Made by a program: the position numbers and the translations under genes. The notes under the pieces were generated by a model. That model was not told where the DNA came from. It worked only from the letters and a program-made list of their open reading frames with translations, and made no database searches. A stretch of DNA of 64,000 bases from Mobula hypostoma. Taxonomy: Eukaryota. Positions 11,912 to 54,438 of this stretch are shown piece by piece. The stretch lies in contig NC_086108.1 in NCBI RefSeq assembly GCF_963921235.1, positions 49,292,001 through 49,356,000 of the forward strand. Reading direction: 5' to 3'. How positions within the stretch are numbered: the first letter of the stretch is position 1; the number at the start of each line of letters is the position of its first letter.

Positions 11912-13347
11912 CAGTTGCAAGAAAAAGTTTGAACCCTTTGCAATTCCCTGGTTTTCTGCATTAATTACTCATAAAATCTGGTCTGATCGTCATCTAAGTC
12001 TCAATAATAGACAAAAACAATCTGCTTCAGCTAATATCACACAAACAATTGTACTTTTAATGTCTTTATTGTATAATTGTTTAATTATTCACAGTCCCGG
12101 TCGGCAAAAGTACGTGAACCCTTGTATTTAATAACTGGTAGAACTTCCTTTAGCAGCAATAACCATCACCAAAAGTTTCCTGGGGTTGCAGATCAGACTT
12201 GCACAAAGACGAGGAGGAATTTTAGACCATTCCTCCATACAAAACTGTTCCAACTCATCAATATTTCTGAGATACCTTACATGAACAGTCCTCTTCAGGT
12301 CCCTCCACAACATCTCAATTAGGTTAAGGTCTGGACTCTGACTTGGGTATTCCAAAACACAAGTTTTCTTTTTTTTAAACCACTGCTTTGTTGTGGTTTG
12401 GATCATCGTCATGATGCTCCTTCCACCATGCTTCACAGTTAGGGTGAGATGATGATGTTAGTGTATAATGCTCCTTTTCTTCCAAACATAGTGGTGTGCC
12501 TATCTGCCAAAAAGTTCAACTTTTACCTCATCTGTCTTCAGAACAATGTCCCAGAAGCATTGTGAAACATCCAGGTAGACTTTTGCAAACTTGAGGCCTG
12601 CTGCAATTTATTTTTGAGAGTAGAGGTTTCCTCCATGATGTCCTTCTATGAACACCATTCTTGTTCGGTGTTTTTCTTTTAGTTGACTTAAGAACAGAGC
12701 GAATTTTAAAGATATCTGCAGGTCTTTTGCTGTTACCCTTGGGTTCTTTTTCCACCTCCTTCAGCATTTCACATTGTGCTCTTGATGTGATCTTTGCCAG
12801 ATGTCCACTTCTAGGGAGAGTAGCAACAGTACTGAGTTTCCTCTGCTTGTAGACTATTTCTCTTACTGTGGACTGATGAGCACCCAGGTCTTTAGAAATG
12901 CTATTGTAGTCTTTTCCAGCTTCATGCATCTCTATAATTCTTTTTCTAAGGTCCTCTGAAAGTTGTTTTGATTGAGACAGGGTGCACATAAACAGATCTT
13001 TAATGAGAAGAGCAGGCTCTGTCAGTAACCTGACTTTGTGTATCTCTTTTATAGACACCTATAGAACTCACACCTCCAATCTCATCTTGTTGATTGGAAC
13101 ACCTGACTTCAAATAACTTTTGTAGAAGGCATTACCCCAGAGGTTCACATATTTTTTGAACCAAAACTGTGAATGTTTAAGTGGGGTACTCAGTATTGAT
13201 GTGAAGTAGTACAATTTTTTGTGTGTTACTAGTTTAAGCAGATTGTGTCTGTCTATTATTGTGATTTAAATGAAGAACAGACCACATTTTATGAGTAATT
13301 AATGCAGAAAACCAGGAAATTGTAAAAGGTTCACAAACTTGCAACTG
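11912..13347 (-). mobile_element. Tc1 transposon (family 'A'), decayed, with long TIRs
   Basis: CAGTTGCAAG...CTTGCAACTG ends with TA on both sides and TIRs of about 200 bp. Transposase remnants: paired-like HTH (LSEDLRKRIIEMHEAGK), [19 protein letters not shown]. Confidence 0.9.
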
Positions 13348-16300
13348 TATGCATTGCTATAAGAATTTATCCCTTGTCATAGTGATCAGTTAGGCACAGG
13401 GAGAATCAAAATTTACTGATAAGGATCAGTTCACAAGTACATGAATTTACACAACCAGATACCAGTGTACACACCTACTACGTTTTTCTGACTTTCCATG
13501 AACAGCCAAAGAATAGAAAAGGTTATACCCAGGAAAGGAGTTTTCCCGATCAAACTTCCACATGTCCGACCTGGGGTTATTTATGTCAGTGATCTGTGGT
13601 GGAGCACAAACTGATATATCAGATTTAAGCACTGAGCCAGAATAAGAAGATCAAGGTGTTGAGGCCAAGGGTGAACTGGCATTTGGCTTACTACTCTGTA
13701 GTTTTACTCTCCTCAGCGCAGAACTGGCTCCACTTGTTTGCAAAATTTGTTTTTTTTGCCCAGTGGTTGTTTGATGATCTTTGCTGTGTGGGTTTTTGTA
13801 ATAGGATCTGTTGTGTTTCTTCATTTTGTGGCTGCCTGCAAGGAGACAAATCTCAAGGTTGTATATGATATACATATGTTGATAGTAAATGAGAGTATGA
13901 AGCTAGTTTTATACACCCCAGTCTTGGAAAAAATTACTCTGCTGAGCCCTGTATTAATATTGAACCATTTGATCATATTGCTTCTCAGACTTCGAAACTC
14001 AGTAGATCCAGTCTGCTTCATCTTTCCTTGTGCAAAATCTCTTGTTTCAAGGCCAATCTGCTAAACCTTTGTTACACTCCCTTCATTGCAAGTACAGGTA
14101 GGGATGCCTGTTCACAGTATCCCCAAGACCTTACACAATTGGAGCAAGATATATTTTTGCTCTTCATTTCAATTTGTACCCCAGTGAATCTCTGAACACC
14201 AACACTTTCCATTCTCTCACCATTTAAGAATTACTCTACTGTTTCTAATCTACCTGCCATTGGAAAACCTTCTAAAACCATTTTGTGGGTGAGAGTTATG
14301 GTGATATACTGTGGGTGAGCACACTTTGGTGCAGCGCCACAGAGTGCATGTAGCGATAGCGTTAGAATACGGGGTCGCAGCAGCAGGGTCGTGTGTTTGG
14401 AGAATGGGTAGGTGGAGAGGGATAGGGAAAGCAGAGTATATTTGAGTATATTTGGCAGGAGAAACCAATCGAAGCTGGATACTCTCTACAGTATTCTACA
14501 AGTTAGGAACTTCAATCTTAAGCAATATTTTGCAGTTTTACAAAGAGAAGTGTTTATGTTTTTGTGATAGTGAGAGTTAGAAGCTGCCTGAATAACATTT
14601 TGGGGCAGTACACAGAATAGGTTCTTTGCTGGGCTAGCAAAGCTTGCACTGTAACTTTTAATTGGATTCTGGTCATTTCAAAGTCATTGGACCTCTTGGG
14701 ACTTGGCATTGTCATGTCAAAGGTGCTGATTTGCATCCATGTAGATAAATTTCATTGACTTCGACTAGAATGGAACTATAGAAATTAACTTGATTGTTCA
14801 GTTTGCAGAGTGTCTAAAATCACTTGGGACAACTTGCATGGACTGTGAAACTAGCTTGTAGATGTAATGTCAAAAATTGTTTGGGCAAGCTGAATTTGCA
14901 CTTCAAACACATTCTAAGAATAATAATAAGAAATGAAGTACAAAGGAGAAGTTTTATGAAGTGCATTTATGGAATTTACCAAACTCCTGATTTGTTCAGT
15001 ATGGAGGTAATAAGCACCCCAAGCACTTGACTTTTAATGAATAACCATTCACTATGCTGGCATTCTTCTAATGTGTTTGCAGTTGCTATACACTACCCAG
15101 TATCATTCTTATTCAAGACCGATCAGAAGCAACACTGTAACTTGGTCAAGTCTATTGTATAGGTTAGCTTTATTAAATGTACTGTTTTGTAGTATACAAG
15201 ACTTAGTCTCCCAAAAGACATAATAAGATTGTTAGTGCCCATAAATCACTGGAGGATTGATTAAATAAATGTAAAAGATGCAAGTTATTTTTAACCAAAT
15301 TTGTTCTGCTCTTTTGGTGTTCAAACACCACAGAAAAAGCAAGGCAGTTTATATTTTTCCAAGTATATCCTTTTGGATTGGGATGAATTGTTTTAATTTG
15401 CTGTTTATTTCCACAGTGTTGTCTGAACTTCTGGCTGTGTTCATGTAAACAATCACATAATGCCCAAGTTTGTTCAGTTTTACCAACAATCCTGAATGTA
15501 GTTCAATCATGAATTTCAGTTCATTGCTTAAGTAGTAAAATTGTATGAATAATTTAGGAATAATTGTGAAAATGTATCTTCAGATATGATTTGATTCACT
15601 CCAGCTGATGTCAAGTAATGACCGAGCAAAGGCAGTGGAAGCAGACAGCAGCATCCCAAGACCCCAAAGATCTGTGATCTGGAATTGGGTGCACTTGTAG
15701 CCAAGCTTTTCATTAAAGTTATACTGCTGCTTGCTGCCGCAAAATGAGGAAAGTTTCCCAGATATTATCCAATTCAAGGAAAGCAAGGACAGTCCAATCC
15801 TGTAAATTACTACTCTCTATCATCAGCAAAGTAATAGCTGTCAGTGATGGTGCTATCAAGCATCTTCTATGTTTCGGCAGCCTCTATCCAGCTGGGTAAA
15901 AGTCATCCCTCTGTGCAAATGGATGGAGTCCCTGTATATGCACACCAACAACCGGCTGCTAGAGGATTGGACTACCAGGATTTATTCTGTTTACTCTGGC
16001 CCAGCTAGAGATGGAAGGAAGAGGGCTTCTCCTTGAGGCTATGATGGGATGTGGTCAAAGCTCTGTCTGTTAGATGTACATGAGGAGTAGTTGAAGAGGT
16101 GGATCCTGAGATCTGGTGACTTGTTAGAGAGGTGACCAACTTGGAATTCATCTATGTTCACGTTTGATGACCAGGCCATAAGCAGATATCGAAAAGGAAG
16201 AAGAGCATCCTGAGAGACCTGCAGCTTAAGAGGCTGTAAGGAACATACGGCAGACCAGATGACCCTGCATCACCTCCACTGCCTACGAAGGATAATCTCT

Positions 16301-22309: not shown

Positions 22310-22475
22310 GGAAGGAGGAAGTTTCTGGTGTCGTCTTCCTTTCCAATCCTGAAGAAGGGTCTCGGCTCGAAATGTTGACTGTTTATTAATTTCCATGGAT
22401 GCTGACTGACCTGAGTTCCTCCAGCATTTTGTGTGTGTTGCTCTGGATTTCCAGTATCTGCAGACCTTCTCATGT
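22310..22475 (+). mobile_element. Solo Penelope-like terminal fragment with hammerhead-like core
   Basis: aatc-CTGAAGA-agggtctcggctc-GAAA-tgtt-gact at 22345-22380, followed by the PLE terminal sequence (gatgctg...gagttcctccagcattttgtgtgtgttgct...atctgcaga). Confidence 0.75.
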
Positions 22476-29045: not shown

Positions 29046-29350
29046 GTAAAGCATTTGATATTACGTATGTAAGACTGAAATTCCACACAAGTCGACCTGA
29101 GAGCTTTGCTATTTATAAGCGTACAAGTGAAGATGGACCTTGGATACCTTACCAGTATTATAGCGGATCTTGTGAAAAAACCTACCACAAAATGAATCGT
29201 GGGTTTATCCGAACTGGAGATGATGAGCAACAGGCACTGTGCACAGATGAATTTAGTGATATATCTCCCCTCACTGGAGGAAATGTAGCCTTTTCTACTC
29301 TGGAAGGGAGGCCTAGTGCTTACAACTTTGACAATAGTCCTGTACTACAG
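29046..29350 (+). CDS. LAMC1: Laminin subunit gamma-1 internal coding exon (LN domain; equivalent to exon 2)
   Basis: Translates to [47 protein letters not shown]...[39 protein letters not shown], as recalled for vertebrate LAMC1 and distinct from LAMC3. Acceptor ttttcatttttgcag and donor CAG|gtaatt. 305 bp, phase 1 in, phase 0 out. Confidence 0.95.
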
Positions 29351-30077: not shown

Positions 30078-33000
30078 TTACATTAAATGAAAATATCGAA
30101 TAAAAGGTCCCCAAATCTGTTCAAATTTAAATGAAGAATCATAAAGGTTACTTCTAATTTTCTCCAAATTCAAACATAAAATCGTCTGAGAGAACCAAAA
30201 AAAGGTAGTTGGAGCATTAAGCTCTTTCCAATGTTGTAAAATTCATCTTTTCGCCATTAAAGTAAGAAATGCAATCATTCTACGGGCTGAAGGGGAAAGA
30301 TTACTAGAAATTTTAGGTAGTCCAAAGATAGCAGTAATAGGGTGAGGAGAGATATCTATATTTAATACCTTAGAAATAATATTGAAAATATCTCTCCAAA
30401 AAGTTTCCAAAGTAGGGCAAGACCAAAACATATGAGTTAAAGAGGCTATCTGCCCCGAACATCTATCACAGAAAGGATTAATATGCGAGTAAAAACGCGC
30501 TAACTTATCTTTGGACATATGTGCTCTATGAACCACTTTAAATTGAATTAGGGAATGTTTAGCACAAATAGAGGAAGTATTAACTAATTGTAAAATCTGC
30601 CCCCAATCATCCACAGAAATGGTAAGCCCCAATTCCTGTTCCCAATCTACCCTAATCTTATCAAATGGAGCTTTCCTAAGTTTCATAATAATATTATAAA
30701 TCATAGCCGATGCACCTTTCTGACATGGATTAAGGTTAATTATCGAATCTAAAATATATGTAGGAGGAAGCATTGGAAAGGAAGAAAGTATAGTACTTAG
30801 GAAATTTCTAACTTGTAAATATCTAAAAAAATGTATTCTTGATAAGTTATATTTATTGGATAGTTGTTCAAAAGACATAAGGGAACCATCTAAAAATAAA
30901 TCCAAAAACCGTAAAATACCCTTAGTCTTCCAAGTTTGAAAAGCGCGATCCGTAAAAGAGGGAGGAAAAAATATGTTACCTAAAATAGGAATCGCTAACC
31001 CGAATTGATTAAGATCAAAAAATTTTCTGAATTGAAACCAAATGCGCAAAGCATATTTAACTATTGGGTTAGAGACCTGCTTAAGACGTTTCGAATCAAA
31101 AGGGAGAGAGGAGCCTAAAATAGAACCAAGTGTATAACCCTGAACTGATTGTAATTCCAATGCTACCCATTTAGGAATAGATAGTATGTCCTGGTCAAGT
31201 AACCAAAATTTCATATGTCGAATATTAATAGCCCAATAATAGAATCTAAAGTTAGGTAATGCTAAACCTCCATCTCTCTTAGCTTTCTGTAAATGTATTT
31301 TACCCAGTCTCGGATTCTTATTCTGCCAAATAAATGAAGAAATTTTAGAGTCAACTTTATCAAAAAAAGATTTAGGAACGAAAATTGGTAATGCCTGAAA
31401 CACATATAAAAATTTTGGCAAAAAGAACATCTTAACTGCATTAATACGACCAATCAAAGTTAAATATAAGGGAAACCATTTAGATGAAAGTTGAGTAATA
31501 TGGTCAATTAATGGTAAAAAGTTAGTCTTAAATAAATCTTTGTATTTACAAGTAATTTTAATCCCAAGATATGAAAAGTAATTATTAATCAATTTAAATG
31601 GAAATTTATAATATAAGGGAAGATGTTTATTAATCGGAAAAAGTTCACTCTTACTAAGATTTAATTTATAACCTGAGAAAAGACCAAATTGTGCTAATAA
31701 CTCTAAAACAGCAGGAATGGATCTCTCAGGATTAGAAATATATAAAAGTAAATCATCAGCATAGAGTGATAATTTATGGGACTTTAATCCCCGAGTTATC
31801 CCAGTAATATTTGAAGATTTTCGAATAGCAATTGCAAGAGGTTCTAATGCAATATCAAATAATAGGGGACTAAGAGGACAGCCTTGTCGAGTACCATGAA
31901 AGAGAGGAAAAAAAGGTGAGTTTAAAGAGTTAGTACGAACCGAGGCTACAGGGGAGTGATATAACAGTTTAATCCAGGATATAAATTTCAAGCTAAAATT
32001 AAACATTTCAAGCACCTTAAATAAATAAGGCCATTCTACTCTATCAAAAGCTTTCTCGGCATCTAAAGAAATAACACACTCAGGAACATTTTGTGAGGGA
32101 GTATAAACGATATTTAACAATGTACGAATATTATAAAAAGAGTAACGACCTTTAATAAAACCCGTTTGGTCTTTCGAAATAATAGAAGGAAGTACTTTTT
32201 CTAGTCTATTTGCTAATAACTTAGAAAAAACTTTAGAATCAACATTTAATAAAGATATTGGTCTATAAGATGCACATTGAGCAGGGTCTTTATCCTTCTT
32301 TAGTATTAGAGAAATTGATGCTCTATTAAAAGATTCAGGAAGTTTACCAAGTTTCAAAGAAGCCTCAAAAACCCTACAGAGCCAAGGAATCAATAAAGAA
32401 GCAAAACATTTATAAAATTCAACGGTAAACCCATCAGGGCCAGGAGCTTTCCCCAGATTCATAGAAAAAATAACATTCTTAATCTCATCCATTGTAATGG
32501 AAGTATCTAATAAAGAAGACATATCCTGTGAAATCTGAGGGAAGTTTAACTTATCTAAAAAATCATTCATATATTTAGAATCTCGAGGAGACTCTGATTG
32601 ATATAAAGAAGAATAAAAATCACAAAAGGTTTGATTAATCCCCACATGATCCAGTATCAATCGATCATTTTGGTTATAAATCTGATTGATTTGAGATTTA
32701 ACATAATTAGATTTCAATTGATTAGCCAGCAGCTTGCCAATTTTGTCACTGTGAACATAAAAGTCACTTCTTGTTTTCTTTAATTGGTTTACAATCGAGG
32801 ACGAGAGTAATAAACTGTGTTCCATTTGAAGTTCAGTTCTTTGTTTGTATAACTCCTCAGAAGGAGCCATAACATATTTCTTATCAATTTCTTTGATCTT
32901 GTCCACAATTGCCATCTCCTCCTGCTTCTGTTTCTTCCTCAAAGCAACAGAATACGAAATAATCTGACCCCGAATATAGGCTTTAAAAGTGTCCCAAAGA

Positions 33001-33854
33001 GTGTTAACCGAAATATCTTCTGTATGGTTAATTGTAAAAAAAAGCTCAATCTGTTCATTCATAAAATTAACAAAGTCCGAGTCCTGAAGCAACAGCGAAT
33101 TAAAACGCCATTGTCTATTATTTGGTATATTGGCCATAATTTTAATAGAAAGCTTAAGTGGAGCATGATCCGAAATGGTTATAGAATCATAATCACATTT
33201 AATCACTGAAGGAATAAGACGAGAATCAATGAAAAAATAATCAATTCTTGAATAGGAATGATGAACATGTGAAAAGAAGGAAAAATCTTTTTCCTGAGGA
33301 TGCAGAAAACGCCAAATGTCCGTCGACCCAGAATCAGAAAGGAAAAAATTAATCAGATTTGCAGATTTATTAGGTAAAGTCCGTAAAGGAGCCGAACGGT
33401 CCAAAGCTGGAGACAAACAGGTATTAAGATCTCCGCCCCAAATCAATGAAAACTCGTTCAAATTCGGAAACTGATCAAACAATGATTTATAAAATTCCGG
33501 ACAATCCATATTAGGAGCATAAACATTAACCAAAACTACTTTTTTATTAAATAGTAAACCACTAACCAATAAAAATCTACCATTCGGATCAGAGATAATA
33601 TCCTGTTGTATAAAAGTAACTGAGGAATCTATAAAAATAGAGACGCCTCGAATCTTAGCATTGGAGTTCGAATGAAATTGTTGTCCCTTCCAGAATTTGA
33701 AAAAACGTAGTCTGTCCCCCCTCCGTACATGGGTCTCTTGTAAAAATAAAATTTGTGCTTTAAGTCTCCGGAACACTTTAAAAACTTTTTTCCTTTTAAT
33801 AGGATGATTAAGACCATTAGTATTCCAGGAGACAAAATTAATAATAGACTCCAT
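30078..33854 (-). pseudogene. L1 ORF2p (APE endonuclease, RT, CCHC) with one premature TGA at 30243-30245
   Basis: SWNTNGLN, FLQETH, SRIDYF, SDHAP, KAPGPDGF, LDAEKAFDRV, GTRQGCPLSPLLF, YADD, CDRC...HMFWSC. The frame continues past the TGA with a typical L1 C-terminus to TAA at 30078-30080. Likely ATG at 33852-33854. Confidence 0.9.
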
Positions 33855-34578
33855 AAATCCTAAAGTCAACCCACAACAAGGAGGATTGACGATAGGCGCG
33901 ACCCACAAACCCGGAGAGGAAACAGAACATACAAAAGATACCGGGAAAAAGGACGCAACCAGTACTTCAATAATGTATATAGCCCAAAGAGAAACAAACT
34001 AAAACGTGAAGCCCCTCCCACCACCTGCCGCCCCAAGACCCCAAGGCAAAATCTAAAGCAGACCCGCCAGAAAGAAGCAAGCCCTAAAACTACCCCCATG
34101 ACTTCCGGTATACGCTCCCTAAAAAAAAAGGTATAAATATGAAAAGGATCAGCTAATTGTAAAACAGTAAAAAAGTAAATAAAAAAAAAGTTAGCTCAAT
34201 TAAAATACCCACAGAACAGAACAAAAGCCGGAAAATATATATTAAAAAAAAACCACAATAAACCTCAAACCCATGAATAGACACAGCAACAAGAAAAAAT
34301 AGGATTATTGACATAAAGTGGTTATAAAAAGCAAGACAGAATAAAATTTAAAAAAAAACTACAAAATTTAAGGCCACACAGGAAATACGTAAGATGACAA
34401 AAGGGAAGTAACCACCCAGAATCCCCTGGGAAAAGAAAGAAATGACGCAGTTAAAAAGAAAGTTTAGCGACCATATTAAGAAATCAAAAATAAACTTTTC
34501 TGCCCAGATAGGGCACGAAAAAGTTAAAACCAACCAATTCACAGCCTCCGATCAACGGAGATCATTAAAAAAAGGCAA

Positions 34579-35478
34579 TTAAGATGTTGAAGATGAAAGT
34601 TGATCCAGATAACTCTGGGCATCCGATGGAGAATCAAAAAAACGAAGGGCTCCATCTGACATGCGAATCCTTAGACGTGCAGGGTACAGCAGCGCTGGTC
34701 TTAAATCCATCTTATAGAATTCCGACATCACGGATCTGTAACGAACCCGTTGGTCCCAGATTGGTTTACTGAAATCTTCCACGAATCGGAACTTAAGATC
34801 CGAAAAATCAATGAAACCTTTAGATCGAGCGAATCGAAACAGTCTCTCCTTGTCTTGAAAATAATGAAAACGTAAAATAACATGCCTAGGTCTATCTGAC
34901 CTAGACGAATATGATGGGATTCTGTGAACACGATCCAGAAGCGGTGGTTGGTCAGGAAATACAGTAGGGAATGCATCTTTTAAAAGTTGAGAAAAATATT
35001 TCATGGGGTTGTTGGATTCCACGGCTTCCCTCACCCCGATCATTCGTAAATTCTGCCGTCGCATTCTAGATTCCAAGTCAGAGTTTTTAAAAGTCAAAAA
35101 GTCAAGTTTCTTCTTCATTACATTAATTGTTTCTTCGATTTTCCCCATCTTAAGCTCACTTTGTTGCGCGAATTTTTGAAGATCAGATATAGCCGACTGA
35201 TGTTCCGCAATAAATGTTTGCATCTTATCCATTGAATCGGCAATTTTCTGGAAATTAGTTGAGATTTCGGTCTGAATCAGGTCTTTAACAGAGCCTGCAA
35301 TTTCCGTACGAATCATCTCCCTAACAGAGGTTGAAATTTCCCTCTGAATTAACTCCGATATCGCTTTCAAAGTCACCGGTGATTCAGTCGGAGGGAAATC
35401 CGTAGCTTTCGGTTTAACCGGAAGTTTACCATCCTTGCCGTTTTTCCCGTTCTTAGACATAGCAGATCTAAGTATCAT
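34579..35478 (-). CDS. L1 ORF1p (coiled coil + RRM + CTD, Transposase_22-like), intact
   Basis: DLESRMRRQNLRMIGVRE, DRVHR, RPRHVILRFH, LLYPARLRI. The true start may be MSKNG (35460). Confidence 0.92.
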   Translation of the reverse strand: MILRSAMSKNGKNGKDGKLPVKPKATDFPPTESPVTLKAISELIQREISTSVREMIRTEIAGSVKDLIQTEISTNFQKIADSMDKMQTFIAEHQSAISDLQKFAQQSELKMGKIEETINVMKKKLDFLTFKNSDLESRMRRQNLRMIGVREAVESNNPMKYFSQLLKDAFPTVFPDQPPLLDRVHRIPSYSSRSDRPRHVILRFHYFQDKERLFRFARSKGFIDFSDLKFRFVEDFSKPIWDQRVRYRSVMSEFYKMDLRPALLYPARLRIRMSDGALRFFDSPSDAQSYLDQLSSSTS

Positions 35479-36057
35479 CCAATTGTCGGAGAATTCAGTT
35501 TAATTCAAAGTATTGTAAGAATTGATGCCTTAATGGTTAATTAAAGTATAGCTGACCATAGAGAAAAAAAACTCAGAGGTAATGGAGCGAGTCAAGAACG
35601 CGACTTCACTCCATGAGCGCTACCGGAAGTCTCCCTGGATTTTGTATCCTTGTGGAGATTATTCCTCCCCCGGTTCATTCACAGGGTGCATTAACGTTAT
35701 CAGCACAGGATGAGTATGTGATTTTTATGCTTTCAATTTGCTTTGCTTAGAAATTAGTGTTTCTACATATTACTTGGGTTGGGTGGAATGTTAATTATGA
35801 TGCAAATATAAATAATAGGTACAAAGCTACATCAGATTGATGATTTAGATTAGAACAGCACTGCAGATGTTGAAAACATAAAATTAAATAAAAGTTTGGA
35901 GCCATTAAGTATTTCAGTTAACACATTGGAGAGAAACTGAGCTCATGTTTCAGGTTAATGACTTGTGGGCAGCAAGGTCCTTGATCTGAAATCAATTTGT
36001 TGTAATTCAAGAGGAAGACAATTTGACACATGTTTCTGTATGAATTACTGCCTAAAT

Positions 36058-40939: not shown

Positions 40940-42750
40940 TAAGTTAGTTTAAATGATTGTTCATATTATATGTAGTGGTAGACATTTTAGGAGGATCTTT
41001 GAAGAAGAGAAGAATCCACCTATGGATAATCAGTAAAGATGAAGGTGGTAAACGAATGAACATAGAATGATACAAAAATATGTCAGCTGATTTGACTTTA
41101 TTTATTTATTTATAAAAGGAAAGAATGACTAATTAAATAAGGGTGGGGAAAAAGCAATGTACATCTGGCCATAGACGTATAGATAGGAAGAATTCCTATG
41201 AATACTTTATCCAAAAAAAAGGAAGCACTGATAAAGTGAGTGTTGGTGTGTGAAAAATTAGTCTGTAATGTTATTAATGGAAATCAAAAAGATCGGATGA
41301 AGATTGGAGAATTCATGTAATACTGTATGTCAGAAATTAATTGAGAAAAAGTTATGAAAGTTACGGGAGTGATACTGAATAAATTGTTGGAGTTTTGGGG
41401 GTAAGTCTGGGTCCTCATGAATGACATCTTCTCATCTTAAAGTAGGGTTTCTTTAGATGGTAAAATAGCAAACGTGGCTATTTTATTCAAAAAGGAAGAG
41501 AATCAGAAAGCAAAAAAAAAATTGAGTCAGCTGGTTGGCATTTGTCATAGGGGAATGTTTGAAGCTATCATTAAAGACTTTAGTTCAAAATTTTGGTCAA
41601 TGCCCTGGCATAATTCGGCAATCCCAACATAGTTTTGTGAAAGTGCTGAGAATAAAAGGGAATTAGTTGATGCAGTATGCTTAGGTTTTTAAACAGCTTT
41701 TGTTGAGGTAGAGAATAAATTATTATTGTATAACAGGTAACATATGGTGGAGAAAATCTGCAGTTGCTGGAAATTCAAGTTACGCGCACACAATGCTGCA
41801 GGAACTCACCAGGCCAGGCACAGCGTCTGTGGAAAAGAGTACATCCTGACGAAGGATCTCAGCCCAAAATGTTGACTGTACTCTTTTCCATAGGTGCTGC
41901 CTGGCCTGTTGAATTCCTCCAGCATATGTTAGAAGGTTGGCTGGCTAGTGGGAAATAGAACAAGTATTTGTTGGTAATAAGAGGTATGCCCTAGGGATGA
42001 GTACAGTGGTTTCATCATAAGTGACTTGGATGAAGGCATTGAAAGCATGATTGTAAAATCTACTGATGACATAATAAGCATTTTGCCTCAATGGTGAGAG
42101 ACTGCAGAGTGTTAATGGAGAGAAATCTGGTATCCATGCACATAGTTTGCAAACAAAAAAGTACTTTGCACATGATACATGTAATTAGGAAAGGTAACGC
42201 AATTTTATTGTGAATTGTGAAATGAATTGAATACATAAGTTGGGAAGAATTTTACTCATTTACATTGCTGACCTCACAATCTGGAGCACTGTATATAATA
42301 CAGGCCTCCTTAATTGAGGAAGAGTGTAAACCTATTTGGAAGCTGTGCAGAGAAGGTTCGTCATACTGTTAGTGGAATGGCGAGTTGCCTTAAGAGGAAA
42401 AATTGGATAGGCCTGGCTAGAATTTGCTGAAGGTTAGAAAACAGGTGATTTGATTGAAATAGTCTAGAGCACATTGTCAAGTGGAGAGGTTCTTGTGGGA
42501 GATTATGGAGCTGGGGGTCACCTATTTAAGCCATAAATTTATGTTTGAGTTTGGAACCTTTGGTGGTGGAAGCAAAGTCTTTTAACGCTAAGTGGATGTA
42601 GATACATTCTTAATATGCAAAAGAATGGAAGATTAACCTTGGGTATGCAGGAATTTAGTGTTGTGGCTACAATCAAAGCGGTTGTGATTATCATTTTAAA
42701 TGAATATTGGAGGGCTGGGTGACCTATACCAGCTGCTAAATGGTATGTTT
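40940..42750 (+). mobile_element. Highly decayed CR1 LINE
   Basis: Scattered CR1 ORF2 remnants (IANV..LFKK, gtgacttggatgaagg, tgcagagaaggttc) and a degenerate tail. Confidence 0.5.
41753..41925. mobile_element. Inverted pair of PLE termini with a central hammerhead-like core
   Basis: Arm atgctgcaggaactcaccaggccaggc...ggaaaagagtaca pairs with tgtactcttttcc...gcctggcctgttgaattcctccagcat. Between them lies CTGACGA-aggatctcagccc-AAAA-tgtt-gact. Confidence 0.75.
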
Positions 42751-43199: not shown

Positions 43200-45345
43200 T
43201 ACTATTGGGCTCAGAAGAGAAAGGAGCTGAAGAGGCAAGCTGTAGAAATAGGGGATTTGTTGGTTAGAGGAACAGAAAGCAGGTTCTATGGATGAGAATG
43301 AGATTCTTGGATGGGGTGTTGCCTTCCGGGTGCCAGGGTCAGGGACATCTCAGATTGAATCCACACCATTGTTAAGTGGGAGAGTGAGCAGCCAGAGGTC
43401 ATGGTTCAAGTTGGCACCAATAACATGGATAGGAGGGGGTGACAAGGTCCTGCCAAGTGTATTTAGGGAGTTAGGTGCTAAGGTAAAGGATAGGACCTCC
43501 AGGGTTGTGCTCTCAGGATTGCTACCCATGCTATGTGCTAGTGAATCCAGAAATAGGAAGATCATACAGTTTCACATATGGCTAAGGAGAAGATTCAGTT
43601 GCTTGGCATTCAAGATGAGGTAGTAAATTGGATTAGCTATTGGCTTTGTGGAAGGAGCACAGAGTAGTTGTAGATGATCGCCTCTCTGACTGAAGGGTTG
43701 TGACTAGTAGAGTGCCGGAGGGATTGGTGCTGAGTCCATTGTTGTCTGTCATTTATATCAACAATTGGGGGTATAGCGGACAGTGAGGAAGACGATCAAA
43801 GCTTGCAGTGGGATCTGGACCAGCTGTAAAAATGGGCTGAAAATAGCAGATGGAATGTAATGCAGACATGAGTGAGGTGTTGCACTTTGGGAAGATAAAC
43901 CAGCGTAGGTCTTGCACGGTGAGGGTAAGGCACTGACGAGAGTGGTAGAACAGAGGGATCTGGGAATACAAATCCATAATTCCTTGAAAGTGACAACACA
44001 GGTAGATAGGATCATGAAGAAAGGTTTTGGTACATTGGCCTTTATAAAACAATGTACTGTTATCAAGTAGCACTCACATCAATGGTGATGAAGTGCTTTG
44101 AGAAATTGGTTATGGCTAGAATCAACTCATGCCTAAGCAAGGACCTGGACCCATTGTAATTTGCCTTTCGCCACAATAGGTCTACAGCGGATATGATATC
44201 ATTGGCTCTTCTCATGGCCTCGGATCATTTGGACAATACTAATACTTCCGTTAGGCTCAGCATTTAACACAATCATTTCTACACTTCCAAAACCTGGACC
44301 TCTACCTCCCTCTGCAACTGGATCCTCAACTTGCTGGAAGACCATAGCCTGTGCAGATTGGAAATAACATTTCCGCTTCACTGATGATCAATACTGACGT
44401 TCCTCAAGGATGTGTGCTTAGCTCGCTGTTCTCCCCTCTCTACACCCATGACTGTGTGGCTAGGCACAGCTCAAATGCCATCTATAAATTTGCTGACAAC
44501 ACCCCTATTTTTGGCAGAATTTCAGATGGTGATGAGAAGGCATACAGGATTAAGATAGATCAGCAGGTCGAGTGGTGTCAGTATGATGAAAGAATTGATT
44601 GTGGATTTCAGAAAGGTTAAGGTGAAGAAACACACACTAGTCATTAAGGGATCAGAAATGGAAAGGGTAGGGAATTTCAAGTCCTGGGTCATCATAGAAC
44701 ATAGAAACATAGAAAACCTACAGCACAATATAGGCCCTTCGGCCCACAAAGTTGTGCTGAACATGTCCCTACCTTAGAAATTATTAGACTTCCCCATAGC
44801 CCTCTAATTTTCTAAGCTCCATGTACCTATCCAAACGTCTCTTAAAAGACCCTATCGTATTGTGTGCAGTTTTGGTCCCCTAATCTGAGGAAACGTATAA
44901 AATTCTAAAGGGATTGGACAGGCTAGATTAAGGATTTTATTCCCTAGATTTTATCCCTAGATGTTTGGATTTTATTCCCTAGAATGTAGAAGATTGTGGG
45001 GAGGTTTGATAGAGGTATGAGGTATACAAAGCTATGAGTGGTAAATGCAATCAGGTTTTTTCCACTGAGGTTGGGTGAGTCTTCAACTAGAGGTAATGGG
45101 TTAAGTGTGAAAGGTGACAGGTTTAAGGGAAATATAAGGTGGTGGTGAAAGTGAGGAATGAGCTGCCAGCATAAGTAGAAAATGCGGGTGCGATTTCAAT
45201 GTTTAAGAGAAATTTGGATAAGTACATGGATGTGAGGTGTATGGAGGGCAGGGTGCAGGTTGTTGGGACTAGCCAGATTAATGATTCAGCATGGATGAGA
45301 TGGGCCAAAGGGCCTATTTCTGTGCTGTAGTGTTCTATGACTATG
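43200..45345 (+). mobile_element. Cluster of LINE fragments: CR1 ORF1 esterase, CR1 RT, Rex1-like RT (about 44080-44690) and CR1 tails in both orientations
   Basis: IGDLLVRG; RTSRVVLSGLLP; NTDVPQGCVLSSLFSPLYTHDC...KFADN; CR1 tails at about 44695-44860 (minus) and ending near 45345 (plus). Confidence 0.7.
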
Positions 45346-48905: not shown

Positions 48906-49020
48906 ATACATCAGATAAACTCTATGTGGTAGAAACATTGTCGGGGCGTGAGTGGCTGAGACAACTAAAACTTGATTGGAGATCCATTCCCTGCAATAGA
49001 GCCAACTGAAATTGAATTGA

Positions 49021-50536
49021 CGCAACATACATCAAAGTTGCTGGTGAACGCAGCAGGCCAAGCAGCATCTCTAGGAAGAGGTGCAGTCGACGTTTCAGGC
49101 CGAGACCCTTCGTCAGGACTAACTGAAGGAAGAGTGAGTAAGGGATTTGAAAGTTGGAGGGGGAGGGGGAGATCCAAAATGATAGGAGAAGACAGGAGGG
49201 GGAGGGATAGAGCCGAGAGCTGGACAGGTGATAGGCAAAAGGGGATACGAGAGGATCATGGGACAGGAGGTCCGGGAAGAAAGACAAGGGGGGGTGTGAC
49301 CCAGAGGATGGACAAGAGGTTATTCAGAGGGACAGAGGGAGAAAAAGGAGAGTGAGAGAAAGAATGTGTGCATAAAAATAAGTAACAGATGGGGTACGAG
49401 GGGGAGGTGGGGCCTTAGCGGAAGTTAGAGAAGTCGATGTTCATGCCATCAGGTTGGAGGCTACCCAGACGGAATATAAGGTGTTGTTCCTCCAACCTGA
49501 GTGTGGCTTCATCTTTACAGTACAGGAGGCCGTGGATAGACATGTCAGAATGGGAATGGGATGTGGAATTAAAATGTGTGGCCACTGGGAGATCCTGCTT
49601 TCTCTGGCGGACAGAGCGTAGATGTTCAGCAAAGCGGTCTCCCAGTCTGCGTCGGATCTCACCAATATATAAAAGGCCACAACGGGAGCACCGGACGCAG
49701 TATATCACCCCAGTCGACTCACAGGTGAAGTGATGCCTCACCTGGAAGGACTGTTTGGGGCCCTGAATGGTGGTAAGGGAGGAAGTGTAAGGGCATGTGT
49801 AGCACTTGTTCCGCTTACACGGATAAGTGCCAGGAGGGAGATCAGTGGGGAGGGATGGGGGGACGAATGGACAAGGGAGTTGTGTAGGGAGCGATCCCTG
49901 CGGAATGCAGAGGGGAGGGGAGGGAAAGATGTGCTTAGTGGTGGGATCCCATTGGAGGTGGCGGAAGTTACGGAGAATAATATGTTGGACCCGGAGGCTG
50001 GTGGGGTGGTAGGTGAGGACCAGGGGAACCCTATTCCTAGTGGGATGGTGGGAGGATGGAGTGAGAGCAGATGTACGTGAAATGGGGGAGATGCGTTTAA
50101 GAGCAGAGTTGATAGTGGAGGAAGGGAAGCCCCTTTCTTTAAAAAAGGAAGACATCTCCCTCGTCCTAGAATGAAAAGCCTCATCCTGAGAGCAGATGCG
50201 GCGGAGACGGAGGAATTGCGAGAAGGGGATGGCGTTTTTGCAAGAGACAGGGTGAGAAGAGGAATAGTCCAGATAGCTGTGAGAGTCAGTAGGCTTATAG
50301 TAGACATCAGTGGATAAGCTGTCTCCAGAGACAGAGACAGAAAGATCTAGAAAGGGGAGGGAGGTGTGGGAAATGGACCAGGTAAACTTGAGGGCAGGGT
50401 GAAAGTTGGAGGCAAAGTTAATAAAGTCAACAAGTTCTGCATGCGTGCAGGAAGCAGCGCCAATGCAGTCGTCGATGTAGCGAAGGAAAAGTGGGGGACA
50501 GATACCAGAATAGGCACGGAACATAGATTGTTCCAC
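49021..50536 (-). mobile_element. Penelope-like retroelement, 5'-truncated (RT C-terminus + GIY-YIG endonuclease + 3' terminal region)
   Basis: RYIDD, LPFLD, YYKPTDSHSYLDYSSSHP, VIYCVRCSRCGLLYIGE, ATHFN. 12-bp TSD AAATTGAATTGA at 49009-49020 and 50537-50548. Confidence 0.93.
49085..49120 (-). ncRNA. Minimal type I hammerhead ribozyme motif in the PLE 3' region
   Basis: Minus strand reads AGTC-CTGACGA-AGGGTCTCGGCCT-GAAA-CG-TC-GACT. Both catalytic boxes, helix I (AGTC/GACT), helix II and a GUC cleavage triplet are present. Confidence 0.8.
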
Positions 50537-51167
50537 AAATTGAATTGAGAAGGGTACTGGATGATGCCACTGCAGTGTTCAAGGATGGCATTGGAAAGCT
50601 CAAACATATCAAGAGAAAAATAGTGTTAAATTAAAATGCCACGCCCAAGTTTTACAAAACCCATCTAGTTCCTTGATTTAGCTGAGGCCTATCTACAGAC
50701 AGAGATGGAAGAAGAGCCCAAATTGTTTCTCACCGTAAATACTGATCAAAGGCTTCAGTGCTATAATAAGCTTATTTTTAGATTTGCATCTGTACCTGTA
50801 CTCTGGCAGAAATCTATGGACCAAGTGCAGCAAGGTTGCCCAGAAATTTGGTGTTACCTGGATGACATCATTCTTACTGGTAATGATGACAGTGAACATC
50901 TCCAAAATCTCAAAACAGTGTTAAAAAGATTAGGAGATTATGGGCTCAGAGCACACGTGTGAATTCTTTAAACCAAGCATCACTTACTGTTGTCACACCA
51001 TTGATGCTCAAGCATTACACAAGTGTGCTGAGAAAATTCAGATAGTGGTGAATGCCCCAAGGCCAAAGGACCTGTCACAGTTGCTATACTGTTTAGGATT
51101 TCTATATTACTATAACAGTTCCTGCCAAATCTCGTTTGAGGTGGCTTTCAAAAAGGTAAAGGAAATG

Positions 51168-51351
51168 CGGGTTCTTTTTTAACATTTAACATTTAAGAAT
51201 AAATTGGACAGATACATAGATGGGAGGTGTATGGAGGGATATGGTCCGTGTGCAGGTCAGTGGGACTAGGCAGAAAATGGTTTGGCACAGCCAAGAAGGG
51301 CCAAAAGGCCTGTTTCTGTGCTGTAGTTTTTCTATGGTTTCTATGGTTTCT
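51168..51351 (+). mobile_element. Short CR1 3' tail insertion
   Basis: CR1 tail ending in (ctatggtttc)n, flanked by aaatg at 51163-51167 and 51352-51356. Confidence 0.75.
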
Positions 51352-51858
51352 AAATGGTGATGTCAGACACTGTACTCACACATTGTGATCCACATTGTCC
51401 AGTGCGTCTTCCCTGTGACGCCTCGCCTTATGGTACAGATGCAGTCAAGTCACATGTTATGAGTGATGGAAGTGAACGCCCCATAGCCTTTGCATCACAT
51501 TCCCTTACTGCTGCAGAGAAAAAATACGCAGAGTTTGGTCTGGGGTGTAAAATGTTTCAACCAGTACTTGTATGGGAGAGTGTTTACTTTCATTAATGAT
51601 AATCAACGGCTAGTGTCCATTTTCAGTCCCCAGAAAGCTGTACTATTAACAGCAGCAGCACAAATACAGAGATGGGTTATTTTCTTGGAGGTCACAATTA
51701 CTAGATCAAATTCGAGAGGATGGCTAATCATGGAAATGCTGATGTATTATCCCATTTACCCTTGGACACTCCTCTTGACATTTACTCCCTAATGTAAATC
51801 AAAGGACTCCCTATAAAGACAGATGTTCCAGAGGGAAACCAGAAAAGAACCCACACTG

Positions 51859-51973
51859 ACACGAGGAATTCTGCAGATGCTGGAAATTCAAGCAACACAC
51901 ATCAAAGTTGCTGAGTCCTGACGAAGGGTCTCAGCCCGAAACGTCGATTGTACCTCTTCCTAGAGATGCTGCC
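51859..51973. mobile_element. 115-bp PLE-derived mini-insertion carrying a hammerhead motif (+ strand, 51914-51949)
   Basis: TSD AAGAACCCACACTG at 51845-51858 and 51974-51987. Core AGTC-CTGACGA-AGGGTCTCAGCCC-GAAA-CG-TC-GATT. Confidence 0.85.
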
Positions 51974-52660
51974 AAGAACCCACACTGTCTCAGTCTACAT
52001 GGGGCTGGAGTATGCCAGTAGAAATTCCAGTTTCCCCATTTTTACCAGCGCTGGAATGAATTTGCTATTGATATAAGTTGCCTTATGTAGGGATTGAGAG
52101 TTGTACCATTCAGACTGCGAGCTAAATTGTTGGAGGAGCTATGTGCTGGTCATCCAGGGGTGTGGTCAGAATGAAAGCATTAGCTCAGTCTGCTGGCCTG
52201 TGCTAGATGAGCAGATTGAACAACTATTCGAGATGCCAGCACGTACAGACGAAACGTGTCCAGAGCTGTCAGAACCAGTTTCTACGGTCTCAGAGTCAAC
52301 TCCTACAACCACCATGGAGGAGGCCCCAAAATATGAGATTGTTTCACAGCCACATGTCTCACCTGCCAGGCAGAATGACCTCCGGTCAGGAAAGACGTTA
52401 TCCTTCAAGAGTACAAAGTCCTCCACAGCAATCAAATCTTCAGGCCAATTGGACAATTTAAAGTTTACTCTGCTGTGGATGTGTATATAGTAGTTATATT
52501 ATCTCATATATTGAGTATATGGTTGAGTTGCATTCTGCACAGAGTTGGAGTTTATAGCAGAGCAGGGAGGAGTTATGTGTATTTAATATTTGAGTAATAT
52601 TGTGAATATATTGTTTGATTAAAGCATTTGTTGTTCATTTAAATAATTCATTACAAGTTG

Positions 52661-54438
52661 CAGTGCAGCTGGAAAGTTTATGAACCCTGTAGAATTTTCT
52701 CTATCTCTACATAAATTTGACTTAAAATGTGATCAGTTATTCACGCAAGTCCTAAAACTAGATAAAGAGAACCAAATTAAATAAATAACACACAACATTA
52801 TACTTGTTCATTTATTTATTGAGAAAAATGATCCAATATTACATGTATTTGTTGGAAAAAGTATGTGAAGTTCTGGGGTAATGCCTTCTACAAAAGGTAT
52901 TTGGAGTCAGATGTTCTAATCAATGTGATGAGATGGGAGGTGTGGGTTGTAGAGGTACCCTGCCCTATAAAAATAGACTCACAAAGTCAGAGCTTGCTCT
53001 TCTCAAGAAAGATCTGCTAATGTGCACCATGTCTCAATTGAAACAACTTTCAGAGGACATTAGAAGAATTGTAGAGATGCATGAAGCTGAAAAATGCTAT
53101 ATAAGCATTTATAAAGACCTGAGTGTTCATCAGTCCACAGTAAGAAAAACTGTCTACAAATGGAGGAAAGTCAGTACTGTTGCTGCTCTTCCTAGGAGTG
53201 AACATCCTGAAAAGATCACACCAAGAGCTCAATGTACAATGCTGAAGGAGCTGAGAAAGAACCCAAGGGTAACAGCAAAAGACCTGCAGAAATCTCTAGA
53301 ACTTGCTAAAGTCTCTGTTCATGTGTCCACTATAAGAAAAACACTGAACAAAAATGATGTTCATGGAACGACACCACGGAGGAAACCACTGCTCACCAAA
53401 AAAAACATTGGTGCATGCCTGAAGTTTGAAAAAGACCACCTGGATGTTCTACAATGCTTCTAGGACAATGTTCTGTGAAAAGATGAAACAAAAGTTGAAC
53501 TTTATGGTAGAAACATTGCTATGTTTGGAGGAAAGAAGTGCTGCACACCAACACCAAAATCTCATCCCAGCTGTGAAGCATGGTGGAAGGAGCATCATAG
53601 TTTAGGGCTGCTTTGCTGCCTCGGGCTGGACAGCTTGCAATTGTTGGGAACAATGATTTCAAAACTGCATCAAGACATTTTATAGAGAATGTCAGGGTAG
53701 CAGTCTGTCACCTGAAGCTTAATAGAAGTTGGATAATGCAACAAGACAATGATCCGAAAGACAAGAGTAAATCAACAACAGAATGGTTTAAAAAAGAAAA
53801 TTCCAGGATGGCTTGCCATCGTTGATGGAACTATGAATTCTGAATTGTACCAGCAAATTCTATAGGAAAATGTCAGGGTATCCATCTGTGAACTGAAGCT
53901 CAAGAGAAAGTGGGTCATGCAGCAAGACAACGACCCTAAGCACTCAAAGTCAGTCTACCAAAGAATGGTTAAAACAGAAGAAAGTCCATGTTTTGGAATA
54001 GCTGAGTCAAAGTCCTGACCTTAATCCTGTAGAAATGTTGTGGAAGGACCTGAAGCAAGCAGTTCATTCAAGGAAGTCCACCAACATCCCAGAATTGAAG
54101 CAGCTTTGTAAGGAAGAATGGCCTAATATTCCTCCAAGCCGATGTGCAGGACTGATCAAGTTACCAGAAATGTTAGCTTGAAGTTATTGCTGTACAAAGG
54201 GGTCACACCAGTTACTGAAAGCAAAGGTTCATATACTTTTTCCAACAAATATATGTAATGTTGGATCATTTTTCTCAATAAATATATCAACAAGTATAAT
54301 GCTTTTTGTGTTATTTATTTAATTGGGTTCTCTTCATCTGGTTTTAAAACTTATGTGAAGATCCAATCACATTTTAGGTCGTATTTAAGGAGAAATAGAG
54401 AAAATTCTGCAGCATTCACAAATTTTCTAGCACCACTG
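52661..54438 (+). mobile_element. Chimeric Tc1 transposon (family B TIRs, family A interior)
   Basis: TIRs of about 210 bp (cagtgcagctggaaagttt ... ttctagcaccactg). Transposase ORF piece at 52933-53463. The QQDNDPK segment occurs twice. Confidence 0.88.

What the first reader, a model, noticed from the sequence alone, without database searches (positions are those of the whole stretch)
51845..51987. 115-bp ribozyme-only mobile unit with a perfect 14-bp TSD
Seen: between two AAGAACCCACACTG repeats lie about 55 bp of inverted PLE terminus. This joins directly to the start of helix I of an intact hammerhead (CTGACGA...GAAA-CGTC) plus about 25 bp. There is no coding sequence, and it is the same subfamily as the PLE 2.8 kb upstream. 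The ribozyme is sense to LAMC1. Inference: either a non-autonomous, retrozyme-like mini-element mobilised by PLE enzymes, or an extreme truncation-inversion product. Either way it places a potential self-cleaving motif in a host intron. This is the best candidate for an undescribed system here.
Basis: partly seen in the sequence, partly recalled or inferred. Interest (0 to 1): 0.75.

Follow-up and report, generated by a model that had tools for sequence, protein, structure and literature searches.

The report
One-off twin-primed Penelope insertion stub
This 115-base insert in a laminin intron is real but is a single-copy stub of a very common Penelope-type jumping gene, not a new mini-element family; its two non-overlapping, head-to-head pieces were likely copied from one RNA onto the two cut ends of the target, which makes it a clean example of how such elements probably insert.

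Summary
A 115-bp insert (51859-51973) sits between perfect 14-bp repeats, and 10 of 11 paralogous copies of the flanking repeat show the empty site. It is two pieces of one Penelope-like element (PLE) joined head to head: 55 bp of tail (inverted) and 60 bp carrying a minimal hammerhead, with 17 nt missing between them. It is not a family. The exact junction occurs once in 3.5 Gb, and the one locus sharing a shorter junction has other ends. 439 loci have this layout, and 45 of 48 junctions examined differ. In 46 sampled two-armed copies one arm always ends at the long tail site and the other never does. That fits two priming events at the two known PLE initiation sites; this locus's non-overlapping arms exclude simple fold-back. 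5' ends pile up at the hammerhead's front edge (27 of 100); the cause is unresolved and I saw no cap-G signal. Cleavage in LAMC1 pre-mRNA is untested and unlikely as a monomer. The scan has noted this pattern before, here and in other genomes.

The parts
51845..51858 (+). Left copy of the 14-bp target site duplication
   Evidence: Exact repeat; single copy at the paralogous empty site in 10 of 11 loci
51859..51913 (-). Left arm, 55 bp: PLE positions +75..+129, ending at the long initiation site (includes the 30-40 bp tail)
   Evidence: 0 mismatches to other copies; mapping to a long natural copy
51914..51973 (+). Right arm, 60 bp: PLE positions -2..+57, from the first base of hammerhead helix I to an atypical upstream 3' end
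   Evidence: 1 mismatch to nearest copies; similar early ends in 3 of 46 sampled two-armed copies and in loci
51914..51949 (+). Minimal type I hammerhead motif: helix I of 4 bp with one G-U, CUGACGA core, bulged A, helix II, GAAA, palindromic 15.2-16.2, no helix III; predicted cut after 51945
   Evidence: Sequence read against the min-HHR traits in PMC4209133; no Rfam match at gathering score; activity not tested
51974..51987 (+). Right copy of the 14-bp target site duplication
50669..52487 (+). Target: decayed, repeated LTR-retrotransposon pol-like relic (Gypsy-like is my reading of recalled motifs) into which the 115-bp unit inserted
   Evidence: 4148 first-look candidates, 72-78% identity for the best 39 others; translations; no Pfam hit for the one segment scanned
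49009..50548 (-). Neighbouring single-armed, 5'-truncated PLE copy with its own 12-bp TSD (49009-49020, 50537-50548); same family, different sub-variant, not the donor
29047..29350 (+). LAMC1 exon (laminin N-terminal domain) upstream of the host intron; boundaries approximate
   Evidence: Pfam Laminin_N; laminin gamma-1 chains; splice context

Best explanation
The 115-bp unit is a single-copy, two-armed stub of an abundant endonuclease-bearing Penelope-like retrotransposon, likely made when the element's protein cut both target strands 14 bp apart and primed reverse transcription from each cut end on one element RNA. One copy likely started at the usual long site (+129) and stopped after 55 nt. 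The other likely started unusually far upstream (+57 instead of about +95) and stopped at -2, the front edge of the hammerhead. The two cDNA ends would then be joined blunt and the gaps filled. Shown: the structure, the TSD, the single-copy status, the family, the long/not-long pairing rule and the 5'-end pile-up. Inferred: double priming, one RNA template, and why copies stop near -2 (an RNA 5' end there is my preferred cause, about 55%). The stub is predicted to be a dead end.
For: Exact junction 1 match; 18-nt junction 2 matches, the other with different ends. 439 loci with this layout; 45 distinct junctions among the first 48 examined. The family encodes RT followed by GIY-YIG (both hits below Pfam's gathering score). 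In the position-ordered C1 sample, 46 two-armed copies: 43 long+short, 3 long+early, 0 long+long, 0 short+short; TSDs of 11-19 bp in 42 of 46. Short-junction set: 42 long+short and 2 long+other among 44 pairs from 48 loci (binomial p 4.5e-13 for 42 of 42; one locus is shared with the first set). The two end classes, about 35 nt apart, match the two adjacent initiation sites and both-strand extension shown in vitro for an Anolis PLE (PMC11167929). The short arm reaches further 5' than the long arm in 27 of 43 pairs, and here the arms do not overlap at all, so one arm was not copied from the other. The arms' 5' ends are correlated (Spearman 0.53, p 2.7e-4), and the arms agree at two diagnostic sites in 24 of 30 measurable loci against 0.24 for random pairing.
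Against: No experiment on this family. The +57 end is atypical (3 of 46 pairs have such early ends), and a later deletion reaching exactly to the TSD could give the same end. Arm agreement could come from two RNAs of one active source, or from conversion between arms; 6 of 30 pairs disagree. Against a simple RNA-5'-end cause: no excess G before -2 in the first 30 loci (G 11, A 11, C 8). Also, 4 of 5 near-full-length copies that reach the upstream hammerhead run past it, and only 1 starts at -2. The samples come from the start of one contig.
Confidence: 0.75

Rival explanations
1. It began as an ordinary long+short two-armed stub of about 155 bp and later lost roughly 40 bp from the right arm, up to the TSD.
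For: A locus with the same junction has the usual +100 end (L134). The missing stretch would have been partly an inverted repeat of the left arm, and short TGC-like repeats flank it (sequence).
Against: The right TSD copy is intact to the base. Early ends with a long-site partner recur at independent loci (3 of 46; 7 more two-armed loci, counting the duplicate pair L187/L188 once). Contigs of a second organism show the same right junction (weak). This changes only the history of one end, not the verdict.
Confidence: 0.1
2. Self-priming or fold-back: one strand is made and folds back on itself, or an antisense RNA self-primes, giving the inverted arm (proposed in PMC3846280).
For: Published proposal based on palindromes at head-to-head junctions (passages). 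Correlated arm ends and matching arm haplotypes are also expected under it.
Against: In its simple form one arm must be nested in the other. Here the arms share no sequence (-2..+57 against +75..+129), and in 27 of 43 sampled pairs the tail-less arm extends further 5' than the tailed arm. It needs extra template jumps or deletions to fit.
Confidence: 0.07
3. A non-autonomous, retrozyme-like 115-bp element that is transcribed and remobilised as a unit by PLE enzymes.
For: Own TSD, no coding sequence, a hammerhead motif. Non-autonomous PLE derivatives exist (Chlamys/MRC1 in PMC8557442; animal retrozymes in bioRxiv 10.64898/2026.07.22.740005).
Against: Single copy. No tandem repeat, one minimal hammerhead only, and no unusual folding (z -0.48). 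Sister loci have heterogeneous junctions. The sense strand lacks both usual initiation sites.
Confidence: 0.03
4. Whatever its origin, the sense hammerhead cuts LAMC1 pre-mRNA, alone or as a dimer with the copy at 22345, and affects the gene.
For: Core nucleotides are intact and sense to the gene; contigs of a second organism suggest the insert is shared.
Against: No helix III; helix I is 4 bp with a wobble; the hammerhead-shaped fold (-6.3 kcal/mol) is above the predicted minimum (-10.4) for the 39-nt stretch. Single min-HHRs showed no cleavage (PMC4209133), and the PAc motif needed protein (PMC11167929). The 22345 copy is 29.5 kb away, on the other side of an exon, and more decayed (-2.5 kcal/mol). 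One private change already weakens helix I.
Confidence: 0.05

Closest known systems
Complex insertions of EN+ Penelope-like elements: inverted 5'-truncated copy, one-sided 30-40 bp tail, TSD (PMC8557442 and PMC3846280; passages read)
   Same: Head-to-head arms, tail on one end only, TSD, heavy 5' truncation, hammerhead in the pLTR, parent ORF with RT then GIY-YIG.
   Different: Extremely short; the arms do not overlap, so it is an inversion with a 17-nt gap and not an inverted repeat; the second arm ends about 40 nt early.
PAc Poseidon element of Anolis carolinensis (PMC11167929; main text read)
   Same: Two adjacent internal initiation sites that define the tail; both target strands cut and extended in vitro; hammerhead cleavage not needed for insertion.
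   Different: Another family and host; that paper's main text, as read, does not analyse inverted copies or where 5' ends fall.
Minimal hammerheads of metazoan PLEs (PMC4209133; results and discussion read)
   Same: No helix III, extra base between 9 and 10.1, G10.1-C11.1 pair, palindromic 15.2-16.2, short helix I; mostly single motifs tied to truncated PLEs; opposite-strand pairs noted.
   Different: Helix II here is about 4 bp; this copy has a wobble in helix I.
L1 twin priming and dual priming (PMC2837659; passages read)
   Same: [quoted passage not shown]
   Different: In L1 it is a minority route with a variable internal priming site and a poly(A) end. In this PLE the second start is usually a fixed site about 35 nt from the first, so arms usually overlap.
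Non-LTR retrozymes of animals (PMC7229834, passages; bioRxiv 10.64898/2026.07.22.740005, first fifth read)
   Same: Short, non-coding, type I hammerhead, PLE-related.
   Different: Those are tandem repeats of roughly 150-450 bp with canonical hammerheads, expressed as circles; this is a single, inverted, unique stub with a minimal motif.

Membership tests
EN+ Penelope-like element insertion | [quoted passage not shown] | tested here: met
   Arms map to the end of a long copy whose ORF hits RVT_1 (E 1.7e-5) then GIY-YIG (E 4.3e-4), both under gathering score
EN+ Penelope-like element insertion | Partial tandem organisation forming pLTRs | tested here: met
   In 5 of 29 near-full-length copies the hammerhead and tail sit directly upstream of the ORF; unit about 3.5 kb. 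This is a family property; the stub has no tandem part
EN+ Penelope-like element insertion | Inverted 5'-truncated copy with a 30-40 bp tail at one end only | tested here: met
   Tail on the left arm only; 46 of 46 sampled two-armed copies have exactly one long end
EN+ Penelope-like element insertion | Target site duplication | tested here: met
   14 bp, empty site in 10 of 11 paralogs; family range 11-19 bp
EN+ Penelope-like element insertion | Clade (Neptune, Poseidon, Nematis) by RT phylogeny | not tested
   No tree built; a Cys-containing linker between RT and EN is visible, which suggests Neptune/Nematis by recall only
Minimal PLE hammerhead (min-HHR) | Conserved core, bulged base before helix II, G10.1-C11.1, palindromic 15.2-16.2, 4-5 bp helix I, no helix III | tested here: met
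   Read from the sequence against PMC4209133
Minimal PLE hammerhead (min-HHR) | Self-cleavage as a dimer or with protein | not testable with these tools
   Needs an assay
Non-LTR retrozyme | Tandem repeats with a hammerhead in at least two consecutive units | tested here: not met
   One unit, one hammerhead
Non-LTR retrozyme | Multi-copy family with a shared unit | tested here: not met
Non-LTR retrozyme | Expression as linear and circular RNA | not testable with these tools
   No run on record as RNA held the stretch, which says nothing either way
Non-autonomous PLE or MITE-like mini-element | Many copies with fixed ends and junction but different TSDs | tested here: not met
   Unique junction and ends; 45 of 48 sister junctions distinct
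Twin priming (works like) | TSDs around two inverted fragments of one element with an internal deletion | tested here: met
   17-nt gap (+58..+74) between the inversion points; definition in PMC2837659
Twin priming (works like) | Both arms copied from the same RNA molecule | tested here: inconclusive
   Sister loci: 24 of 30 arm pairs agree at two sites against 0.24 expected; this does not separate one RNA from two RNAs of one source

The most novel reading that the evidence does not exclude
Two-ended priming is the normal route to inverted PLE insertions. An asymmetric enzyme pair primes one RNA at the long and the short site, one from each target strand, and both cDNAs tend to end together at an RNA boundary at the hammerhead's front edge. 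Rare non-overlapping stubs like this one are direct genomic evidence against fold-back self-priming, and the hammerhead would mark the start of a template rather than a cut site.
Probability: 0.5. Interest if true: 0.5.

Novelty: new member of a known kind. Interest (0 to 1): 0.24.

Why it matters
The locus itself is one of tens of thousands of PLE scars and opens no new class. Its value is as a test case. How PLEs make head-to-head copies with a one-sided tail is still called open in the papers read (PMC8557442, PMC11167929), and the published proposal is self-priming (PMC3846280). Arms that share no sequence, plus the strict one-long-end rule in sister loci, favour priming from both target ends. 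That can be tested with the existing in vitro PLE system. A search for 'Penelope' with 'twin priming' returned 3 papers, none on PLE insertion by title (listing only); searches turned up no paper making this case in the parts read. Subscription papers and supplements were not seen, so it may be in print.

Tried and rejected
Rfam scan of the window: no match at gathering score. Folding of the 115 nt: not unusual (z -0.48). Family hypothesis: rejected. Recurrent junctions as a sign of a family: five loci sharing one junction differ in outer ends and flanks, and the joint has a 2-nt microhomology. Donor = upstream neighbour: rejected on haplotype. Cap-derived G at the -2 break (a lead from earlier scan notes): not seen in the first 30 of 3,596 loci. 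Break count at -6 (1,142): my pattern failed to exclude point variants, which are frequent among the listed rows, so I do not use the number. Hammerhead cut site as the main 5' boundary: only 4 of 100 ends at +28..+31 (p about 0.02 uncorrected, and a palindrome there confounds it). Expression: no RNA holder listed, which is no evidence either way. Pfam gave no hit for the window's own truncated PLE ORF or for one flank segment. The first junction script had an indexing bug for the inverted arm (set B); it was redone. Positions upstream of -2866 in my first reference were not PLE sequence and were dropped. One two-armed copy with a 392-nt spacer (L096) falls outside the pairing rule used and is not counted.

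Full report
Observation. The window has two exact 14-bp repeats at 51845-51858 and 51974-51987 around 115 bp. A shuffle control gives 0.57 matches even with two mismatches. I number the family from the first base of the TCCTGA motif that opens the hammerhead core (0). The left 55 bp are positions +75..+129 reversed, and the right 60 bp are -2..+57 in sense (exact matches to other copies). The joint is blunt and 17 nt (+58..+74) are in neither arm. The flanks belong to an old repeated pol-like relic (translations; 'Gypsy-like' is my reading of recalled motifs, not a Pfam result). In 10 of 11 paralogs fetched the flanks are contiguous over one copy of the site, so the duplication arose with the insert. 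The site is in a ~47-kb LAMC1 intron on the + strand: the upstream exon matches laminin gamma-1 and the next exon is about 12.9 kb past the window. Contigs from a second organism label cover both junctions with 0-2 differences, but only 24-25 letters lie inside the insert, below the tool's 31-letter rule. A shared, fixed insertion is therefore suggested, not shown.

Family. The hammerhead core pattern has 57,681 exact matches in the genome and a tail pattern 87,666. A long natural copy encodes RT then GIY-YIG (both hits under gathering score). In 5 of 29 near-full-length copies the hammerhead and tail lie directly upstream of the ORF start, the partial-tandem pLTR layout, with a unit of about 3.5 kb. 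The neighbour at 49009-50548 is a one-armed, 5'-truncated copy with a 12-bp TSD. It differs from the stub at 6 positions and has another haplotype (each seen in 12 of 93 sampled copies), so it is not the donor.

Is the 115-bp unit a family? No. The 27-nt junction has 1 match in 3.5 Gb. An 18-nt version has 2, and the other locus has the usual short end at +100, another TSD and a more diverged left arm. A search for arms ending at +57 (it catches about a third by design) gave 14 matches, and none but this one has the -2/+75 junction. A loose pattern gives 439 loci of the same layout. Among the first 48 by position there are 45 distinct junctions: 24 with inserted bases, 19 with 1-3 nt microhomology and 5 blunt. 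These are independent events with a shared mechanism.

Mechanism. I sampled copies by position on contig 1 (first 100 matches of each pattern; 125 loci). The 3' ends fall into two classes, about +87..+103 and about +130. Of 46 two-armed insertions, 43 pair a long with a short end, 3 pair a long with an early end (+48, +51, +54), and none pairs like with like; TSDs of 11-19 bp were found in 42. The short-junction set gives 42 long+short and 2 long+other among 44 pairs. Frangieh et al. (PMC11167929, main text read) showed in vitro that a PLE protein cuts and extends both target strands, and that it starts at two adjacent internal sites whose spacing is the genomic tail. The simplest reading is that each target end is primed once, one at each site, and the two cDNA ends are joined. 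This locus belongs to the long+early class. Its arms share no sequence, which is the layout defined for L1 twin priming (PMC2837659, passages). Simple fold-back (PMC3846280, passages) needs one arm nested in the other; it fails here and in the 27 of 43 pairs where the tail-less arm reaches further 5'. The arms' 5' ends are correlated (Spearman 0.53, p 2.7e-4), and arms agree at two diagnostic sites in 24 of 30 measurable loci of 34 tried, against 0.24 by random pairing. That fits one RNA but does not exclude two RNAs from one source or later conversion; 6 pairs disagree.

Why the right arm begins at helix I. In the tail-anchored sample, 27 of 100 5' ends fall in +13..-11: 0.015 per base against 0.0035 nearer the tail and 0.0015 far upstream (p 1.2e-6 and 3.7e-16; window chosen after seeing the data). 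A pattern for breaks at exactly -2 finds 3,596 loci (a few are internal deletions). I favour an RNA 5' end near there, because a structural stall would be expected at the 3' edge of the fold (inference). Against that: no excess G before -2, and 4 of 5 near-full-length copies run through the upstream hammerhead. The predicted cut site has at most a small cluster (4 of 100).

The ribozyme. The motif has the traits of minimal PLE hammerheads (PMC4209133, results and discussion read). That paper saw no cleavage for a single motif, and the PAc motif needed protein. This copy has a wobble in a 4-bp helix I, and its hammerhead-shaped fold is less stable than the predicted minimum. An effect on LAMC1 is untested and unlikely.

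Comparison and verdict. Inverted 5'-truncated copies, one-sided tails and TSDs are described PLE features (PMC8557442, passages; PMC3846280). Retrozymes are tandem, multi-copy and carry canonical hammerheads (PMC7229834, passages; bioRxiv 10.64898/2026.07.22.740005, first fifth); those tests are not met. I reached the two-primer reading and the hot zone before opening the scan's notes. Those notes report the same in this and other genomes and are not independent support. No supplements were read; those of PMC11167929 and PMC4209133 may bear on end positions and fish motifs. Verdict: real, ordinary in kind, a one-off; modest value as a clean mechanistic example.

Noticed in passing
loci L176-L189: After the +57 end the next base is A in 11 of 14 matches although the pattern allowed A, C or G; possibly AT-rich targets, unexplained.
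   Followed up: no
L187 and L188 (G000:C96, about 0.86 Mb apart): The same PLE insertion with the same flank occurs twice: a local duplication or an assembly duplicate.
   Followed up: no
window 41750-41901 and 22347-22475: Two older, diverged hammerhead-bearing PLE fragments of related families; the one at 41844 is also sense to LAMC1 and lies in the same intron as the finding, closer than the 22345 copy.
   Followed up: partly
window 30246-33998, minus strand: A 1,251-codon open frame with an endonuclease-like start, and a 306-codon frame at 34582-35499: looks like a young, near-intact L1-type element in the same intron.
   Followed up: no
window 51173-51343: Another short repeat fragment (3' end of a LINE-like family, repeated at 45195 and 24062) interrupts the same pol-like relic, making three nested insertions in 3 kb.
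   Followed up: no
L087, L095, L124, L152: Long two-armed copies whose arms stop at similar distances (for example -1058 and -1042), hinting at coordinated synthesis or a shared truncated RNA.
   Followed up: partly
L051 and L071 (G000:C1 near 0.40 and 1.82 Mb): Two loci share the same internal inversion breakpoint (-797 joined to -2620), which may be a rearranged source copy that was itself remobilised.
   Followed up: no
L214: A near-full-length copy whose 5' pLTR starts at -2, the same base as the finding's right arm.
   Followed up: partly
window 52661-54438: Long terminal inverted repeats about 1.5 kb apart with related copies at 37-600 and 11930-13357; a transposase-like frame at 52882-53460 suggests a Tc1-like DNA transposon.
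   Followed up: no
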